Below are positions 17,341 to 64,000 of a stretch of 64,000 nt of DNA, one piece after another. The stretch comes from Heterodontus francisci. Lineage: Eukaryota. The notes below the pieces were generated by a model, which was not told the origin of the DNA, searched no databases, and saw only the letters and a program-made list of their open reading frames with translations. The translations under genes and the position numbers were made by a program. The number at the start of each line of letters is the position of its first letter. Within the stretch, counting starts at the first letter, position 1. The stretch covers positions 1,674,001-1,738,000 of the forward strand of contig NW_027140807.1 in NCBI RefSeq assembly GCF_036365525.1, read 5' to 3'.

Positions 17341-17379
17341 TGTTTTTGTTGAACTGCTCCGTCTCTCTGAGTCACTGTG
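17341..17379 (-). other. 23-bp-spacer recombination signal sequence of the TRBV segment
   Basis: CACAGTG-actcagagagacggagcagttca (23 nt)-ACAAAAACA directly after CAWS. Confidence 0.95.
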
Positions 17380-17872
17380 CTGACTCCAGGCACAGAAATA
17401 CAGGGCCGAGTGATTCTCCCGCAGGCTGGTGGTCTCCAGGTTGAACTGGGAACCAGTCGGTCGTTTGGCATTGAAGCCCTCCACCATCCCCTCTGAGTTC
17501 ACACCTGGTGTAGCTGCAGAGTAAAACATCAGCCGCGGCTCCTTCCCCGGGTCCTGTCTGTACTAGAACATGTAACCGCTACTCTCACCCTCCACATGGC
17601 ACTCCAGTCCCACTCCCTCCCCAGGAAATCTGGAGACGGCGGTGTGAGTCTGGTGGACCCTCGCTGAGATCGCGCCTGCGGGAAGAGACCGGGAGAGAAG
17701 AAGGTCAGTGAACAGGGACAAACTGGGATGTGAAGAATGAAGGAAGGAGAGAAAGATAGAGAGAAAGAAAATAAGAAAGAGAGCTGTTAACACAAACAAT
17801 GGGTGTGTGGGGTGGTGGTGAGAATGATCCCTTACTTTGAAATCAGACCATGAGACTCAGTAACAGATACAT
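17380..17872 (-). pseudogene. TRBV: T-cell receptor beta variable segment (TRBV30-like, CAWS type), pseudogene
   Basis: Leader exon 17872-17836 (MYLLLSLMV*FQ, donor gtaagg). V exon 17675-17380 after cccgcag acceptor: SAISARVHQTHTAVSRFPGEGVGLECHVEGESSGYMF*YRQDPGKEPRLMFYSAATPGVNSEGMVEGFNAKRPTGSQFNLETTSLRENHSALYFCAWS. Stops: TGA 17843-17845 in the leader, TAG 17563-17565 at the conserved Trp. Confidence 0.92.
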
Positions 17873-18911
17873 CTTCCACTGGAAGCTGATCCTGCAATTG
17901 GGAAATCAGTGGAAAGAAGAGAGTTGAGTCCTGTGAGAAGCCACATGAAGACTCAAGCAAGTGATTCAGGTTTGTCCAACACCTCCCTCCCTGATGGGGA
18001 TCCCACACCCCTCTCTCTACCATTGGCTGCCAGTAGTTGTCGTTGCATTTGTTGGTATCGCTCTGCTGCTAAAGTTGTTGTTGTATTTGTTGTTGTATTT
18101 GCTGGTGTTTTTCTCCGACTGAGGTTGTTGAATTTGTTGGTGCTTGAATCTCCTGCTGATCTGTTGTTGAATTTGTTGGCGTTGTTCGCCTGCTGAGGTA
18201 GTTGTTGTGTTTTCCCTGCTGGGGTTTTTGTTGTGTTTTTTGTTTTCTTCCCTGCTTAAGTTGCTGTTGGAATTTTTTTAATGTTGAGTTTGTTGTTGCA
18301 TTATTTCGAGGTTTTTTTGCCCCCTGCTGAGGTTATTTTCTCTTTTTTAATTCATTCATGAGATTTTGGGCGACGCTGGTTGAGGCCAGCATTTATTGGC
18401 TATCCTTAATCGCCCTTGAGAAGGTGGTGGTGAGCTGCCTTCTTGAACCACTAGGTCCATGTGGGGTAGGTACACCCACAGTGCTGTTCGGAAGGGTGTT
18501 CCAGGATTTTGACCCACGAAAGTGAAGGAACGGTGATATAGTTCCAAGTCAGGATGGTGTGTGACTTGGAAGGGAACTTGCAGACGGTGATGTTCCCATG
18601 CGTCTGCTGCCCTTGTCCTTCTAGATGGTAGAGCTCATGTGTTTGGACGGTGCTGTCAAAGGAACCTTGGTGCGTTACTGCAGTACATCTTGTAGCTGGT
18701 ACAAACTGCTGCCACTGTGCGTCGGTGGCGGAGGGAGTGAATATTTAAGGTGGTGTTTGTTTAATTAGATTCCCCCAGCTGCTGTGGTGGGATTTGAACT
18801 CCTGTGCTCTGGATCATTTGGTCGAGGCCTCTGGATTACTAGTCCCTGTAAAATAACAGCTGTGCCACCGTACTCCCAGAGACTGGGGTTAGGTGTATTA
18901 CACAATTCCCA

Positions 18912-18950
18912 AGTTTTTGCCATGTTTCCTTGCATTCTAGTTACACTGTG
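18912..18950 (-). other. 23-bp-spacer RSS of the second V segment
   Basis: CACAGTG-taactagaatgcaaggaaacatg (23 nt)-GCAAAAACT, a few codons after YYC. Confidence 0.88.
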
Positions 18951-19233
18951 TGTATCCTTGTGAGCCCCACAGTAGTAAGTGCTGTTGGCTTGGACCCGGG
19001 AGCTTTTCAATGACAGAGTGAAAATGTTTGCCTGAGTCTCGTGCTGGGTTTCAATCCTTTTCCTGTCGTTCAATGAAGAAAGTACACTCTACCTGATCCA
19101 TTCCATGCAGTCACCAATCTGCAAGTACCAGTCCAAGCAACACTCAGTCATGTTGCCCTGCCCAATGCTTCTGTGGAACGTGGCTTCCTCCACGGGAACC
19201 AGGGTTTTTGACCACCGGGGACTGGAGAACCAT
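18951..19233 (-). pseudogene. Degenerate antigen-receptor V segment, probably TCR delta-like (TRDV2-type)
   Basis: VLQSPVVK..(frameshift)..VPVEEATFHRSIGQGNMTECCLDWYLQIGDCMEWIR*SVLSSLNDRKRIETQHETQANIFTLSLKSSRVQANSTYYCGAHKDT. WY.Q, EWI, FTL and STYYC framework motifs are present; the first Cys is lost; stop at 19089-19091. Class assignment is by recalled motif resemblance only. Confidence 0.75.
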
Positions 19234-19939
19234 CTAACAAGATTCTTGACACAGGATCCAAATCAATGGGGAGAGAACGACCGCGGGTTACAGGGCGGGA
19301 CAGAGGCAAAAGCAGAAGAGAGGGAATAAGAAGGAGACAAATTATTCTTCTCCAGTCACGCTGCTACATTCACACTTATATTTGCTCCACAGGTTAAGCC
19401 CAATTATAAATCAGATTTATGGCATTGATAAAACTATAAATGCACCAAACTCGGAAGGATTAACACAAACCAGCTCAGTCTGCATCTGAGAAAAATGAAA
19501 ATTGGTAATGTTTAATGATGATACTCTGTCAGAATAATCCTAACTGCTGTTCACATCAAGGAACAGTAAATTATTTCAATTTGGTTGACGAGGAGATTAT
19601 GTATAGCAATGCAAAAAGTAACTATTACGAACATTAATTTCATCAACAATGGGACCAAATGGGGATAGTGGTGTTTCCTGTCTTAAAGCTGGAAAGCAGT
19701 AATATGGAAAGCAGATCTCAAACTACTTTGAGATTCTTTTCAGAGGTGGAGGCTCGTTATAAGCAGTGTGATCAAACCGCCCCTGCTGCTGTGGAAACTG
19801 CAGATAGGTCAAATAACCAGTGTCACTGGCGTTGTATTCCTTGCAGAGCACCCTCTGACCACATCATACCAACAAAACCTTAGAGGGGAACAGAGCCGGA
19901 CAGGCAGAGGCCATCCCGGGGAACCCCACATAGGGAGAA

Positions 19940-29300: not shown

Positions 29301-32300
29301 AACCACAGCTATGATGAGGTCTGGAGCTGAGTGACCCTGGCGGAGCACAAACTGACCATCACTGAACAGGTAATTGCTGAGCAAGTATCATTTGATAGCA
29401 CTGTCGATGAGACCTTCCATCATTTTACTGATGATAGAGAGTAGACTGATGGGACGGTAATTGGGTGGGTTGAACTTGCCCTGCTTTGACTTGTCATGCT
29501 TTTTATGCACAGGACGTGCCTGAGCAGATTTACACATTGCAGGGTAGATGCCAGTGTTGTAGCTGTACCAGAATAGCTTGGCTCAGGATGCAACAAGTTC
29601 TGGAGCACAGGTCTTCAGTACTACTTCAGGGATATTGTCAGGGCCCATAGCATTTGCAGTATTCAATGCCTTCAGTCATTTCTTGATATCACCTGGAGTG
29701 AATCGAATTGTCATCTGTGATGTTGGGGACTTCAGGAGCAGGCCGAGGTGGATCATCTACTCGGCACTTCTGGCTGAAGATGGTTGCAAATGCTTGAGTC
29801 TTATCTTTCGCACTAATGTGCTGGGCTCCCTGATCTTTGAGGATGGGGATATTTCTGGGGCCTCCTCCTCCAGTTAGTTGTTTAATTATCTACTGCCCTT
29901 CATGACTGGATGTGGCAGGACTGCAGAGCTTAGATCTGATCCGTTGGTTATGGGATCGCTTAGCTCTGTCTATCACATGCTGCTTCTGCTGTTTGGCACG
30001 CAGATTGTCCTGGGTTGTAGTTTCACCAGGCTGACACCTCATTTTGAGGTATGCCTTGTGCTGCACTTTACATGCCCTCCTGCACTTTTCATTGAACCAT
30101 GTTTGGTCTCCTGGCTTGATGGTCATGAAAGAGTGGGGAATATACCGGACCATGAGGTTACAGATTGTGGTTGAGTACAATTCTGCTGCTGCTGTTGTTC
30201 CCACAGCACCTCATGGATGCCCATTGTTGCATTGCTAGATTTGTTTGAATCTATCCCATTTAGCATGGTGATAGTGCCAGACAACACGATGGATGGTATC
30301 CTCAATGTAAAGGCGGGACTTCGTCTCCACAAGGACTGTGCGGTGGTCACTCCTACCAATTCTTCTTTTTCTTTTGGGCCTCCTTATCTCGAGAGACAAT
30401 GGATACGCGCCTGGAGGTGGTCAGTGGTTTGTGAAGCAGCGCCTGGAGTGGCTATAAAGGCCAATTCTGGAGTGACAGGCTCTTCCACAGGTGCTGCAGA
30501 GAAATTTGTTTGTTGGGGCTGTTGCACAGTTGGCTCTCCCCTTGCGCCTCTGTCTTTTTTCCTGCCAACTACTAAGTCTCTTCGACTCGCCACAATTTAG
30601 CCCTGTCTTTATGGCTGCCCGCCAGCTCTGGCGAATGCTGGCAACTGACTCCCACGACTTGTGATCAATGTCACACGATTTCATGTCACGTTTGCAGACG
30701 TCTTTATAACGGAGACATGGACGGCCGGTGGGTCTGATACCAGTGGCGAGCTCGCTGTACAATGTGTCTTTGGGGATCCTGCCATCTTCCATGCGGCTCA
30801 CATGGCCAAGCCATCTCAAGCGCCGCTGACTCAGTAGTGTGTATAAGCTGGGGGTGTTGGCCGCTTCAAGGACTTCTGTGTTGGAGATATAGTCCTGCCA
30901 CCTGATGCCAAGTATTCTCCGAAGGCAGCGAAGATGGAATGAATTGAGACGTCGCTCTTGGCTGGCATACGTTGTCCAGGCCTCGCTGCCGTAGAGCAAG
31001 GTACTGAGGACACAGGCCTGATACACTCGGACTTTTGTGTTCCGTGTCAGTGCGCCATTTTCCCACACTCTCTTGGCCAGTCTGGACATAGCAGTGGAAG
31101 CCTTACCCATGCACTTGTTGATTTCTGCATCTAGAGACAGGTTACTGGTGATAGTTGAGCCTAGGTAGGTGAACTCTTGAACCACTTCCAGAGCGTGGTC
31201 GCCAATATTGATGGATGGAGCATTTCTGACATCCTGCCCCATGATGTTCGTTTTCTTGAGGCTGATGGTTAGGCCAAATTCATTGCAGGCAGACGCAAAC
31301 CTGTCGATGAGACTCTGCAGGCATTCTTCAGTGTGAGATGTTAAAGCAGCATCGTCAGCAAAGAGGAGTTCTCTGATGAGGACTTTCCGTACCTTGGACT
31401 TCGCTCTTAGACGGGCAAGGTTGAACAACCTGCCCCCTGGTCTTGTGTGGAGGAAAATTCCTTCTTCAGAGGATTTGAACGCATGTGAAAGCAGCAGGGA
31501 GAAGAAAATCCCAAAAAGTGTGGGTGCGAGAACACAGCCCTGTTTCACACCACTCAAGATAGGAAAGGGCTCTGATGAGGAGCCACCATGTTGAATTGTG
31601 CCTTTCATATTGTCATGGAATGAGGTGATGATACTTAGTAGCTTTGGTGGACATCCGATCTTTTCTAGTAGTCTGAAGAGACCACGTCTGCTGACGAGGT
31701 CAAAGGCTTTGGTGAGATCAATGAAAGCAATGTAGAGGGGCATCTGTTGTTCACGGCATTTCTCCTGTATCTGACAAAGGGAGAACAGCATATCAATAGT
31801 CGATCTCTCTGCACGAAAGCCACACTGTGCCTCAGGGTAGACGCACTCGGCCAGCTTCTGGAGCCTGTTCAGAGCGACTCGAGCAAAGACTTTCCCCACT
31901 ATGCTGAGCAGGGAGATTCCACGGTAGTTGTTGCAGTCACCGCGGTCACCTTTGTTTTTATAGAGGGTGATGATGTTGGCATCGCGCATGTCCTGGGGTA
32001 CTGCTCCCTCGTCCCAGCACAGGCATAGCAGTTCATGTAGTGCTGAGAGTATAGCAGGCTTGGCACTCTTGATTATTTCAGGGGTAATGCTGTCCTTCCC
32101 AGGGGCTTTTCCGCTGGCTAGGGAATCAATGGCATCACTGAGTTCCGATTTGGTTGGCTGTATGTCCAGCTCATCCATGACTGGTAGAGGCTGGGCTGCA
32201 TTGAGGGCAGTCTCAGTGACAGCATTCTCCCTGGAGTACAGTTCTAGGTAGTGCTCAACCCAGCGGTCCATCTGTTTGCGTTGGTCAGTGATTATGTCCC

Positions 32301-35300
32301 CCGATTTAGATTTGAGGGGGGTGATCTTCTTGATGGTTGGCCCAAGAGCTCTCTTCATGCCATCATACATTCCTCTGATGTTTCCGGTGTCTGAGGCCAG
32401 CTGAATATGACTGCATAGGTGTTACCAGTAGTCGTTTGCGCAACGCCTAGCTGTTCTTTGTGCAGTACTTCTGGCTGCTTTAAGTGCTGCGGATGTTAAA
32501 TCGCTGGGGGCTTTCTTGTAGTTCAAAAGTGCAATGCGCTTAGCGGCTATGACAGGTTCCAGCTCTTCATTATGAGATTGGAATCAGTCTGCATTTCTCT
32601 TCGCACTTTTGCCGTAGGTGGTCAAAGCTGACTCATAGATGGCGTCTCTGATGTGGGCCCACTTGGTCTCAGCATCCCCTGTGGGAGTGTTTTGAAGGGC
32701 TGTTACAAGTGAATTTAGAAATTTTTGTAACAGCTGTGGGTGAGAAATTCTGCTCGTGTTGATGCGCGGGTGGCCCTTCTGCTTGGAATGATGCAACTTC
32801 TTTGGTCTGAGTCTAACCTTGCTGCACACCAGGGAGTGGTCGGTGTCGCAGTCCGCACTGTGGAAGCTGCGTGTGATTGGAACACTGTTGAAGGCGGCTC
32901 GCCTTGTGACAATGAGGTCTAGCTGGTGCCAGCGACGTGATCTTGGGTGCCTCCATGAAACCTGGTGACAGGGTTTAGTGTGAAAGAACGAGTTGGTGAT
33001 GCAGAGGTTATGATAGGTACACAACTCAAGCAGTCTCTGCCCGTTCTCATTCATCCTTCCAACGCCATAGCGCCCAAGGCAGGAGGGCCATGAGTCATGG
33101 TCGGCCCCAACCCTGGCATTAAAGTCCCCCAGCAGGAATAGGTGTTCGGTGTTGGGGATGCTGCTAATGATGTTATGGAGTTGTTCATAGAACTGGTCTT
33201 TAGCTTCAGGTGCGGAGCAGAGTGTTGGAGCATAGATGCTGAGTAGGTGTACTGGACCAGAGGTGGTGAGCAGTCGGATGGACAGTATGCGTTCCGAGCC
33301 ATTTGAGGGAGGCTCTATCATGCTGAGCAAGGAGTTTCTGATGGCGAAGCCCACTCCATGCTGTCTTGGTTCTTCAGGATCCCTGCCCTGCCAGAAGAAG
33401 GTGTAGTCTTGCTCTGCTAGAGAGCCACTCGCGGGGAGGCGAGTCTCCTGAAGTGCTGCAATGTCCACATTGAATCTACTGAGCTCGTTGTTAATGATGG
33501 CGGTCTTCCGAGAATCGTTGATTTGTGTAAGGTCTTCCGACAGGCCAGGACACATAGTTCTGACGTTCCAGCTTGCAAAGCGAAGGGCTGGTACCTTCTT
33601 TCCTTTTTTCATGTTGTTTGGTGCGGTGTATCAGTCCACCTTTCGGGCAATGACCCTGAGCTCCAAGCACCCATTGAAGCAGGCAGACTGTGGCGGGACA
33701 GAACCTTATTGAGCGGAGGCTGCCCGGTTTGAGGCGGGCGGTAGCTGTCCAGTGAGGTGCAATGACCTCTCCCACCGACAAAGGCAACCCGTGGCGCCCA
33801 GTTTCTACGCCAATTTATCTGGACTTATAACCCGTAACTGCTGCCTTCCGTGTTGTTTCAGTCGCTGTGAGGCAACTATGGAGTGACCTCTCCATGGCGC
33901 ATGCCTGGGCAAATTTATGGAGGTTGAGAGTTGCCCAGTCGTCAAAGCCCCCCTCTCGGCCTTTCTGGTGGGGTCCAAAGGAGTGCAGGACACGACGTTT
34001 GGCACCAGTATGGCTGCAGGAACTGCCGGAAACATGCCAAAGGTGACACATGACCGCCTATGGGGTTCCGCTCCGGATTTTCTGTTAGGGTTTACTCCTT
34101 TAGCCTTGGTCTCTCCCGAGACGCCCACAAGGCAGTGGGCACTCCTACCAATACTGTCATGGATATGTGGCAGGCAGATTGGTGAGGATGAAGTCAAGTA
34201 TATTTTCACCTCTTGTTGATTCTGTCATCATCTGCCACAGTCGCAGACTAGCAGCTATGTCCTTTAGGACTCAGCCAGCTCGGTCAGGAGTGGGCGGCAG
34301 TGATTGAGGGGAGTGGGATGTAGTGAATGTGGGGAGTGGGATGTCGTGACTGAGGGGAGGGGGATGCAGTGACTGAGGGGAGTGGGATGCAGTGACTGAG
34401 GGGAGTGGGATGCTGTAATTGAGGGAAGTGGGATGTAGTGACTGATGAGTGAGATGTGGTAACTGATGGGAGTAGGATGTAGAGATGCGGGGAGTGAGGT
34501 GCAGTGCTTGAAGGAAATGGTACGGAATGATTCGGTGGACTGGGTGTGGTAACATAGAGAAGTGGGATGCAGTTATTGAGGGGAGTAGGATGCCGTGACT
34601 GAGTGGAGTGGGATACACAGACTGAGGGGAGTGGGATGCAGTGACTGAGGGGAGCTGGATGCAGTGACTGAGGGGAGTGTGATATAGTGACTGAGGGGAG
34701 TGGAATACAGTGACTGTGGGGAGTGTGATGCAGTGACTGAGGGGAGTGTGATACAGTGACAGTGGGGAATGGGATACAGTGACTGAGGGGAGTGTGATAC
34801 AGTGACTGAGGGGAGTGTGATACAGTGACTGAGGGGAGTGGGATACAGTGACTGAGGGGAGTGGAATACAGTGACTGTGGGGAGTGTGATACAGTGACTG
34901 AGGGGAGTGTGATACAGTAACTGAGGGGAGTGTGATCCAGTGACTGTGGGGAGTGGGATAAAGTGACTGAGGGGAGTGGAATACATTGACTGAGGGGAGT
35001 GGAATACAGTGACTGTGGGGAGTAGGATACAGTGACTGAGGGGAGTGTGATACAGTGACTGAGGAGAGTGTGATACAGTAACTGAGGGGAGTGGAATACA
35101 GTGACTGAGGGGAGTGGAATACAGTGACTGTGGGGAGTGGGATGCAGTGACTGAGGGGAGTGTGATCCCTTACATTTATCTTCACATCCTCCTCGCTTTC
35201 ACTTGTCACTTGAACTTTTCCCAGTTCTGATGTCAGGTCACATATTAACATTAAACATCTTTCTGTCACTCAGTCGCAGACTCTGCATTCACTGACCCGT

Positions 35301-61854: not shown

Positions 61855-64000
61855 CTTCATGGGTGGTTGTCATGGACTGCGACACCGACCAGCCCCTGGT
61901 GTGCAGCAAGGTTGGACTCAAACCAAAGAAGCTGCATCACTCCAAGCAGAAGGGCTGCCCGCGCATCACACTGGCAGAATTTCTCATCCACAGCGGTTAC
62001 ATAAGTTTCTAAATTCACCTGAAAAAGCCCTTCAAAACACTCCCACAGGGGATGCAGAGACCAAATGGGCCCACATCAGAGACGCCATCTATGACTCAGC
62101 AATGACCACCTATGGCAAATGTGTGAAGCGGAATGCAGACTGGTTTCAATCTCACATTGAAGATCTGGAACCGATCATAGCCGCTAAGCGCATTACACTG
62201 CTGAACTACACGAAAGCCCCCAGCGAGTTAACATCCGCAGCACTTAAAGCAGCCCGAAGCGCTGTGCATATGACTACTGGCAGCCCCTATGCAGTCATAT
62301 TCAGCTGGGCTCGGACACTGGAAATATCAGAGGAATGTATGATGGCATGAAGAGAACTTTTGGGCCAACCATCAAGAAGATCGCCCCTCTCAAATCTGAA
62401 TCAGGGGACACAATTACTGACCAACGCAAGCAAATGGACCGCTGGGTGGAACACTACCTAGAACTGTACTCCAGGGAAAATGTTGTCACTGATACCACCC
62501 TCAATGCAGCCCAGTCTCTGCCAGTCATGGATGAGCTGGACGTACAGCTAACAAAATCGGAACTTGGTGATGCCATTGATTCTCTAGCCAGTGGAAAAGC
62601 CCCTGGGAAAGGATAGCATTACCCCTGAAATAGTCAAGAGTGCCAAGCCTGCTATACTGTCAGCACTGAACGAAGTGCTTTGCCTGTGCTGGGATGAGGG
62701 AGCAGTACCACAGGACATGCGCGATGCCAATATCATCACCCTCTATATGAACAAGGGTGACCACGGTGACTGCAACAACTACCGTGGAATCTCTCTGCTC
62801 AGCATAGCAGGGAAAGTCTTCGCTCGAGTCGAATTAAACATGCTCCAGAAGCTGGCTGAGCATGTCTACCCTGAGGCACAGTGAGGCTTTCGAGCAGAGA
62901 GATCTACTATTGACATGCTGTTCTCCCTTCGCCAGCTACAGGAGAAATGCTGTGAACAACAGATGTCCCTCTACATTTCTTTCATTGATCTCACCAAAGC
63001 CTTTGACCTCGTCAGCAGACGTGGTCTCTTCAGACTACTAGAAAAGTTTGGATGTCCACCAAAGCTACTAAGTATCATCACCTCATTCCATGACAATATG
63101 AAAGGCACAATTCAGCACAGCGGCGCCTCATCAGACCCCTTTCCTATCCTGAGTGGCGTGAAACAGGGCTGTGTTCTCGCACCTACACTGTTTGGGATCT
63201 TCTTCTCCCTGCTGCTCACACATGCGTTCAAGTCTTCAGAAGAAGGAACTTTCCTCCACACAAGATCAGGGGGCAGGTTGTTCAACCTTGCCCGTCTAAG
63301 ACCGAAGACCAAAGTACGGAAAGTCCTCATCAGAGAACTCCTCTTTGCTGACGATGCAGCATTAACATCTCACACTGAAGAGTGTCTGCAGAGACACATC
63401 GACAGGATTGCGGCTGCCTGCAACGAATTTGACCTCACCATCATCCTCAAGAAAACGAGCATCATGGGACAGGATGTCAGAAATGTTCCATCCATCAATA
63501 TCGGCGTCCACGCTTTGGAAGTGCTTCAAGAGTTCACCGACCTAGGCTCAACTATCACCATTAACCTGTCTCTCGATGCAGAAATCAACAAGCGCATGGG
63601 AAAGGCTTCCGCTGCTATGCCCAGACTGGCCAAGAGGGTGTGGGAAAATGGCGCACTGACACAGAACACAAAAGTCCAAGTGTATCATGCCTGTGTCCTC
63701 AGTACCTTCCTGCATGGCAGCAAGGCCTGGACAACGTATGTCAGCCAAGAGCGACGCCTCAATTCATTCCATCTTCACTGCCTCCGGAGAATGCTTGGCA
63801 TCAGGACCGTATCTCCAACACAGACGTTCTCGAGACGACCAACATCCCCAGCATATAAGCCAGCGGAGCATCAGATGGCTTGGCCATGTGAGCCGCATGG
63901 AAGATGGCAGGATCCCCAAGGACACATTGTACAGCGAGCTCGTCACTGGTATCAGACCCACCAGATGTCCATGTCTCCACTTTAAAGACGTCTGCAAATG
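61855..64000 (+). mobile_element. 5'-truncated, decayed copy of the same RTE LINE family (runs off the window)
   Basis: ORF fragments 61859-63985 closely match the 30421-33612 protein, with frameshifts and stops. Confidence 0.93.

What the first reader, a model, noticed from the sequence alone, without database searches (positions are those of the whole stretch)
17341..19233. A TRBV30-like segment and a probable V-delta-like segment sit side by side, both with intact 23-RSS
Seen: two co-oriented V pseudogenes ~1.1 kb apart. The first (LECHVEG..YRQ..LMFYS..AKRP..QF.L...FCAWS) resembles the mammalian TRBV30 type, which is the inverted V at the 3' end of TRB. The second (ATF..SI..GNM....WY.Q....EWI...FTL...STYYCGA) lacks V-beta hallmarks and looks more like a TRDV2-type or shark V-delta. 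TRB and TRA/D are normally separate loci, so adjacency would indicate a mixed or orphon V cluster. Cartilaginous fish are known to mix V types in TCR-delta rearrangements. The delta assignment is inference from a degraded sequence.
Basis: partly seen in the sequence, partly recalled or inferred. Interest (0 to 1): 0.7.

Follow-up and report, generated by a model that had tools for sequence, protein, structure and literature searches.

The report
Dead delta-like V in multiplied TCR-beta
Two broken T-cell-receptor variable gene pieces, one ordinary beta-type and one delta-like, sit at the edge of a shark beta-chain gene array that the genome assembly repeats with 21 constant genes, so they are likely a dead passenger pair copied along with an unusually multiplied beta locus rather than a mixed beta/delta locus.

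Summary
Observation confirmed: two co-oriented V pseudogenes with 23-RSS, 1.04 kb apart. Neither is an orphon. They end a 62-hit V-beta array on contig C761, 315 kb from a C-beta that is 99-100% identical to horn-shark records. TRA/D (C34) and TRG (C5) lie elsewhere.

V1 is a pseudogenised shark TRBV. V2 is delta-like: it scores 38 bits with Vdelta2-type genes, 34 with an intact neighbour V3, 19 with this shark's TRA/D Vs and 11 with canonical TRBV. V2 lacks Cys23 in 41 of 41 copies examined and is likely an old dead duplicate of V3. V3 has a catshark orthologue and relatives beside TRBV in bony-fish gene models. Tree tests cannot fix V2's origin.

The larger result is the context. At least 21 stop-free C-beta exons, each with D-J upstream (13 sequence types, 6 on one contig), lie among multi-V arrays on seven contigs; bamboo shark has 2 and bichir 5. 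All 17 V2-then-V1 pairs are doubly dead passengers of this amplification. The scan had already noted multiplied TRB units and a Vdelta2-like beta-resident V on other DNA of this genome. The direct counts are new here.

The parts
17836..17872 (-). V1 leader exon, with premature TGA at 17845-17843
   Evidence: 21 of 30 paralogues examined have an open leader plus V exon
17380..17675 (-). V1: pseudo-TRBV of the shark CAWS-ending family, TAG at Trp41 (17565-17563)
   Evidence: 99/95 clade with a C-beta-joined bamboo shark V; 117 bits to canonical TRBV profile
17341..17379 (-). V1 23-RSS (heptamer perfect, nonamer 1 mismatch)
18350..18850 (.). high-copy interspersed repeat between the two V segments (approximate limits)
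   Evidence: very high depth of unrelated contigs over this stretch
18912..18950 (-). V2 23-RSS (heptamer perfect, nonamer 2 mismatches)
18951..19236 (-). V2: delta-like V pseudogene (no Cys23, two TAG, +1 frameshift; leader exon not identified)

Best explanation
Both segments are broken V genes at the outer edge of a TCR-beta V array that this shark's assembly repeats around at least 21 D-J-C-beta units, and V2 is likely an old dead tandem duplicate of an intact delta-like V (V3) that lives in the beta arrays, not an import from the delta locus. Shown: the lesions, the array, the D-J-C-beta units, the separate TRA/D locus, the copy numbers. Inferred: V2 died before the amplification, and the V2-V1 cassette was then copied as a passenger by segmental duplication. 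Inferred: the RSSs could still be cut by RAG, and joining to the nearest D-beta (335 kb left or about 277 kb right, both in opposite orientation) would go by inversion and give only non-productive chains. Inferred: working beta chains come from intact Vs, probably including V3, each unit acting as a small translocon.
For: Context: 62 V hits, all minus strand, C761:1,483,515-1,693,211, ending in this pair. One D with 12- and 23-RSS, 16 J and C-beta at 1.356-1.376 Mb. C-beta is 99-100% identical to Heterodontus francisci records, including a rearranged cDNA. TRA/D transmembrane exons and J clusters are on C34:3.18-3.46 Mb, TRG on C5. Amplification: 38 V1, 42 V2, 21 V3 and 21 C-beta copies; 21 of 21 C have a D-J match upstream within 32 kb; C loci differ by a median 2.1% and fall into 13 types. 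V2 death: 41 of 41 copies examined lack Cys23 and carry a TAG at the exon start; in 17 of 17 V2-then-V1 pairs V1 is broken too. V2-V3 link: V3 is the best non-self pairwise match of the V2 majority sequence (120 vs 108); colinear nucleotide match, score 108 vs codon-shuffle maximum 100; both have the short FR2; 18 of 21 V3 copies have a V2 within 5 kb. V3: stop-free in 19 of 20 copies, catshark orthologue at 63% identity (100/99), fish relatives fused with TRBV or C-beta in gene models, one spliced germline contig in a probable RNA run. Bamboo shark TRB also has V arrays inverted 3' of C (PMC10322711 supplementary file 16).
Against: The ML tree puts V2 with the gar/bowfin/bird/crocodilian Vdelta2-type genes (86/87, unstarred, long branch), not with V3. 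The window copy scores slightly higher with that group than with V3 (38 vs 34 bits) and pairwise 90 vs 89. AU tests reject no placement (p 0.14-0.32). Several canonical TRBV reach nucleotide scores equal to or above V3 (up to 116 vs 108). An intact bird gene shares the short FR2. No V3-D-J-C-beta junction was seen. The TRAC region is duplicated at 100% identity on a small contig, so the assembly holds some redundant sequence and 21 may overcount.
Confidence: 0.72

Rival explanations
1. V2 is the shark orthologue of the TRA/D-resident Vdelta2-type gene of bony vertebrates. It moved into, or was left behind in, the beta locus early, separately from V3, then died and was amplified.
For: Tree groups V2 with Vdelta2-type genes at 86/87; profile score 38 vs 34 bits for the window copy, tie at 47 for the majority sequence; no Vdelta2-type V was found among the C34 stretches read, so the lineage may be missing from this shark's TRA/D.
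Against: Long branch and unstarred support; V2+V3 is not rejected (p-AU 0.19); tight physical linkage to V3 (18 of 21); best pairwise match of the least decayed copies is V3. Only parts of C34 were read.
Confidence: 0.17
2. The many beta units are mostly an assembly artefact (uncollapsed haplotypes); the true locus has 2-4 units as in bamboo shark or salmonids.
For: The seven contigs appear unplaced (C761 is 1.99 Mb, against 59 Mb for C34); 14 of 21 C loci have a partner within 10 differences in 3.3 kb; TRAC is duplicated at 100% on C1869.
Against: Six C-beta of five types on one contig, four each on two others; 13 types with median 2.1% divergence; TRG C gave one hit and TRA/D transmembrane exons four.
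Confidence: 0.06
3. V2 is simply a very decayed canonical V-beta, making this an ordinary array.
For: AU test does not reject V2 plus canonical TRBV (p 0.318).
Against: 1-8 bits against each canonical TRBV family profile and 11 against all, versus 29-38 for delta-like groups; no canonical TRBV among the top 22 pairwise matches.
Confidence: 0.03
4. The pair is an orphon, a mixed TRB/TRD cluster, or a NAR-TCR-like double-V cassette.
For: V2 is delta-like and lies 5' of V1; the array has no D-J-C directly at its own 3' end.
Against: No D or J lies between the two, and V1 has its own leader; D-J-C-beta units flank the array on the same contig; no TRA/D constant exon on these contigs.
Confidence: 0.02

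Closest known systems
Bamboo shark (Chiloscyllium punctatum) TRB, PMC10322711 supplementary file 16 (part 1 of 5 read)
   Same: D-J-C units in both orientations with V arrays inverted 3' of C
   Different: 2 C and 2 D there; at least 21 C and 40 D-J matches here
Bichir TRB (five V-D-J-C units, same file) and salmonid TRB (up to four V-D-J-C loci, PMC10464911, passages read)
   Same: several mini-translocons, each with many V
   Different: about 4-5 times more units here, near-identical C, spread over seven contigs
Salmonid TRBV6 (PMC10464911, passages read)
   Same: atypical TRBV with long CDR1 and very short CDR2, used in beta rearrangements; V3-like fish genes fit this description
   Different: orthology to V3 not tested (no sequence); TRBV6 has introns in its V exon, V2 and V3 do not
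Vdelta2-type V genes of TRA/D (bowfin gene model joined to C-alpha, P0141; bird and crocodilian genes, delta label recalled)
   Same: best-scoring group for V2; V3 copies are the best genome matches of the bowfin V
   Different: here the lineage sits in beta arrays and V2 is dead
3'-inverted TRBV clade including mammalian TRBV30 (PMC11754216, passages read)
   Same: V1 lies inverted 3' of the nearest C-beta and ends in CAWS (TRBV30 motif recalled)
   Different: V1 belongs to the largest shark family, found in both orientations; orthology untested
Shark Ig cluster organisation (V-D-J-C repeated up to 100 times, PMC6795676, passages read)
   Same: repetition of the whole rearranging unit
   Different: each unit here carries several to dozens of V and about 16 J or more, so combinatorial joining is kept

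Membership tests
TRBV (V1) | 23-RSS and position in an array served by D-J-C-beta | tested here: met
TRBV (V1) | groups with V domains joined to C-beta | tested here: met
   99/95 clade with bamboo shark P0019; 117 bits to TRBV profile
TRBV (V1) | open frame with Cys23, Trp41, Cys104 | tested here: not met
   TAG at Trp41 and TGA in leader: pseudogene
TRBV30 / 3'-inverted TRBV clade (V1) | inverted position 3' of C-beta | tested here: met
   C-beta on + at C761:1,376,239, V1 on - at 1,691,380
TRBV30 / 3'-inverted TRBV clade (V1) | phylogenetic grouping with TRBV30 | not testable with these tools
   no labelled TRBV30 sequence was returned; PDB list dominated by scFv
TRDV of the TRA/D locus (V2) | location in the TRA/D locus | tested here: not met
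   TRA/D on C34; 42 of 42 V2 matches on the seven TRB contigs
TRDV of the TRA/D locus (V2) | affinity to this shark's TRA/D V families | tested here: not met
   19 bits vs 38; separate in tree, though AU p 0.23 does not reject
Vdelta2-type V lineage (V2) | sequence grouping with Vdelta2-type genes | tested here: inconclusive
   best profile score and 86/87 tree support, but tie with V3 and no AU rejection; human TRDV2 itself not available
TRDV of the TRA/D locus (V2) | rearranges to D-delta/J-delta/C-delta | not testable with these tools
   only contigs of four runs of one sample, no repertoire reads
canonical TRBV families (V2) | membership in a canonical V-beta family | tested here: not met
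   1-11 bits
NAR-TCR double-V cassette | D and J between the upstream V and a leaderless supporting V (definition recalled) | tested here: not met
   no D or J between the two; V1 has a leader
orphon | V outside a locus with D-J-C | tested here: not met
multi-unit translocon TRB (bichir/salmonid kind) | several V(n)-D-J(n)-C units | tested here: met
   one unit mapped in full; 21 of 21 C with D-J match upstream
shark Ig-type cluster organisation | one V and one J per C | tested here: not met
   31 V hits and 16 J before one C

The most novel reading that the evidence does not exclude
The horn shark builds TCR-beta from about 13-21 or more active V-D-J-C mini-translocons spread over roughly 10 Mb, a half-way state between translocon and shark Ig clusters that poses a large allelic-exclusion problem. 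Each array also carries one intact and up to two dead members of a Vdelta2-type lineage, relics of an ancestral beta/delta locus, with the intact V3 making delta-like beta chains.
Probability: 0.4. Interest if true: 0.75.

Novelty: new variant of a known kind. Interest (0 to 1): 0.52.

Why it matters
The pair itself makes no protein, but it marks two testable things. First, reviews describe cartilaginous-fish TCR loci as translocons (PMC6795676), and the highest TRB unit counts I read are 4-6. Thirteen to 21 near-identical units would make this shark a natural test of how one beta chain per T cell is enforced, a question left open for four loci in salmonids (PMC10464911). Second, a Vdelta2-type V lineage resident in beta arrays of sharks and bony fish bears on the proposed common origin of beta and delta loci by cis duplication (PMC12227049).

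Tried and rejected
Pfam scan failed on stop codons and the first PDB search used a wrong frame. PDB searches were dominated by scFv constructs and could not assign chain class. A protein search for an intact V2 orthologue gave 0 of 6 candidates, which is weak evidence. The ESM Atlas gave only generic V-set clusters. AU tests had no power: four placements of V2, none rejected; three long-branch rows were dropped before these tests. No run is on record as RNA. Four probable RNA contig sets of one sample were laid: V1-family and one low-depth V2-family contig came from paralogues, and no V-D-J junction could be read. The spliced V3 contig matched no copy exactly (best 15 of 17 listed letters). 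Rast and Litman 1994 and Hawke et al. 1996 were not held; one PMC id recalled for a nurse shark paper was wrong and gave an unrelated article. NAR-TCR, orphon and TRB/TRD fusion readings were rejected as above.

Full report
Observation. Both segments are real and lie on the minus strand as described. V1 has a leader (ATG 17872), V exon 17675-17380 and a 23-RSS at 17379-17341, with stops in the leader and at Trp41. V2 spans about 19233-18951 with a 23-RSS at 18950-18912. It has a +1 frameshift, two TAG codons and Arg in place of Cys23. I found no V2 leader exon in the roughly 500 bases read upstream. No D or J lies between them; a high-copy repeat does.

Setting. The window is G000:C761:1,674,001-1,738,000. 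I read C761 from 1,174,001 to its end at 1,986,717 (813 kb). The pair is the 5' end of 62 V hits, all on the minus strand, from 1,483,515 to 1,693,211 (56 longer than 250 bases). No D-J-C lies directly at the 3' end of this array. To the left, a full unit on the plus strand has 31 V hits, one D flanked by 12- and 23-RSS at 1,356,015, 16 J, and C-beta exon 1 at 1,376,239 with a transmembrane exon near 1,378,300. To the right, D-J blocks begin near 1,969,700 on the plus strand and run off the contig. The window Vs are therefore inverted with respect to both nearest D-J blocks. C-beta is 99-100% identical to records labelled Heterodontus francisci, including a rearranged cDNA. Three alpha/delta-type transmembrane exons, J clusters and VH-like Vs lie on C34:3.18-3.46 Mb (alpha versus delta inferred from position). 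TRG lies on C5 near 199.49 Mb (label from recalled motifs).

Amplification. Genome searches gave 38 V1, 42 V2, 21 V3 and 21 full C-beta exon 1 matches, all on seven contigs (C761, C407, C779, C1317, C1675, C2233, C876). The searches score only their best candidates, so these are lower bounds. All 21 C exons are stop-free and differ at a few residues at most. 21 of 21 have a D-J match upstream in the same orientation within 32 kb, and 15 of 21 have two. Over 3.3 kb the C loci differ by a median 2.1% and form 13 types at a cut of 10 differences; C407 alone carries six C of five types. Against this, the TRAC region recurs at 100% identity on small contig C1869, so some redundancy is likely an artefact. 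The true haploid number is at least 6 and probably 13-21 (inference). Only one unit was mapped in full.

Class of V1. It sits in a 99/95 clade with horn shark CAWS-ending Vs and a bamboo shark V joined to C-beta in a gene model, and scores 117 bits against a profile of 90 canonical TRBV (the window copy is among those with stops and was not in the profile, but close paralogues were). 21 of 30 paralogues examined are intact. Every V1 that directly follows a V2 is broken: 5 by the same TAG and 12 by a frameshift, 17 of 17. TRBV30 orthology was not testable.

Class of V2. Profile scores for the window copy: Vdelta2-type 38.0, shark V3 33.8, fish V3-like 29.1, IgL 21.2, VH 20.4, horn shark TRA/D V 18.9, TRG 14.2, canonical TRBV 11.4 (small groups of 4-11 sequences except TRBV). 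The Vdelta2-type group is 8 proteins; one is a bowfin model joined to C-alpha, and the delta label of the bird and crocodilian genes is recalled. In a 64-row ML tree (three long-branch rows of 67 dropped) V2 joins that group at 86/87 on a long branch, while V3 joins a catshark gene at 100/99 and the fish V3-like genes at 90/85. AU tests reject none of four placements. V2 lacks Cys23 and has a TAG at the exon start in 41 of 41 copies examined of 42, so it likely died before amplification. I prefer descent from V3 for four reasons: V3 is the best pairwise match of the less decayed copies, the two align without net gaps and share a short FR2, and 18 of 21 V3 have a V2 within 5 kb. The tree and the window copy's own scores lean the other way, so separate descent from a Vdelta2-type gene stays open.

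V3. It is stop-free in 19 of 20 copies examined, all with a 23-RSS. V3 copies are the 16 best genome matches of the bowfin TRA/D V, ahead of any C34 V. Fish gene models fuse V3-like domains with canonical TRBV domains, and in Nibea with J-C-beta, which implies residence in bony-fish beta arrays (inference from automatic models). One contig of probable RNA run X1 splices the V3 leader to the exon and runs on through the RSS, a germline transcript of a paralogue; no rearranged V3 was seen.

Comparison with print. Bamboo shark TRB has 2 D-J-C units with inverted V arrays and bichir has 5 units (PMC10322711, passages and supplementary file 16 part 1 of 5; lead from earlier notes). Salmonids have up to four V-D-J-C loci and an atypical TRBV6 with long CDR1 and short CDR2 (PMC10464911, passages). 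A newt has six C-J-D units (PMC12698447, passages). A review calls cartilaginous-fish TCR loci translocons (PMC6795676, passages). PMC11754216, PMC12227049 and PMC8656973 were read as passages. I recall that Rast and Litman 1994 and Hawke et al. 1996 reported several horn shark TCR-beta constant genes or clusters from blots; neither was held, so this is recalled only and lowers novelty. Eight searches listed no genomic description of horn shark TRB; subscription papers and unseen supplements may hold one. Earlier notes of this scan on other DNA of this genome proposed multiplied units (five C by annotation), a Vdelta2-like beta-resident V and doubled D-J blocks; I had reached the first two readings before seeing them.

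Verdict. The value lies in what it marks: a TRB locus multiplied well beyond the cases I read of, carrying a conserved delta-like V lineage. New variant of a known kind; interest 0.52.

Noticed in passing
G000:C761:1,745,109-1,906,848 and 1,207,659; window flanks: A roughly 32 kb tandem segmental repeat, six copies right of the window, each holding a 5' fragment of V1; much of the window belongs to this repeat family.
   Followed up: partly
G000:C761:1,246,886 (-), 1,436,335 (+), 1,940,187 (-): An intact V1 copy stands at the 5' end of three V arrays in the opposite orientation to the array.
   Followed up: partly
G000:C761:1,392,395 and eight other places: A divergent partial C-beta-like exon lies inverted 16-20 kb downstream of C-beta in 8 of 9 places found.
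   Followed up: no
G000:C761:1,602,018 (-): A stop-free TRBV carries an RSS with a 12-base spacer instead of 23, which would change its joining partners.
   Followed up: no
G000:C34:3,301,761 (-) and 3,461,831 (+): Two delta-type transmembrane exons with their own J sets in opposite orientation, with VH-like Vs between them.
   Followed up: partly
G000:C1869:25,911-29,024: 100% identical copy of the TRAC transmembrane region of C34, probably an assembly duplicate.
   Followed up: partly
window 30424-33630 (-) and 62885-63982 (+): Long frames resembling LINE endonuclease and reverse transcriptase, by recalled motifs.
   Followed up: no
window 25994 (-) and 2862 (-): Isolated 23- and 12-spacer RSS-like matches with no V, D or J beside them; the latter recurs in the 32 kb repeat.
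   Followed up: no
G000:C8:115-125 Mb, C46:15-17 Mb, C23:54-56 Mb, C36:41.6 Mb: Large runs of Ig constant-like exons; V-J with 12-RSS on C46 and C36 fit light-chain clusters.
   Followed up: no
L098:2910-3719: Spliced, unrearranged V3 transcript contig in probable RNA run X1, matching no assembled copy exactly.
   Followed up: partly
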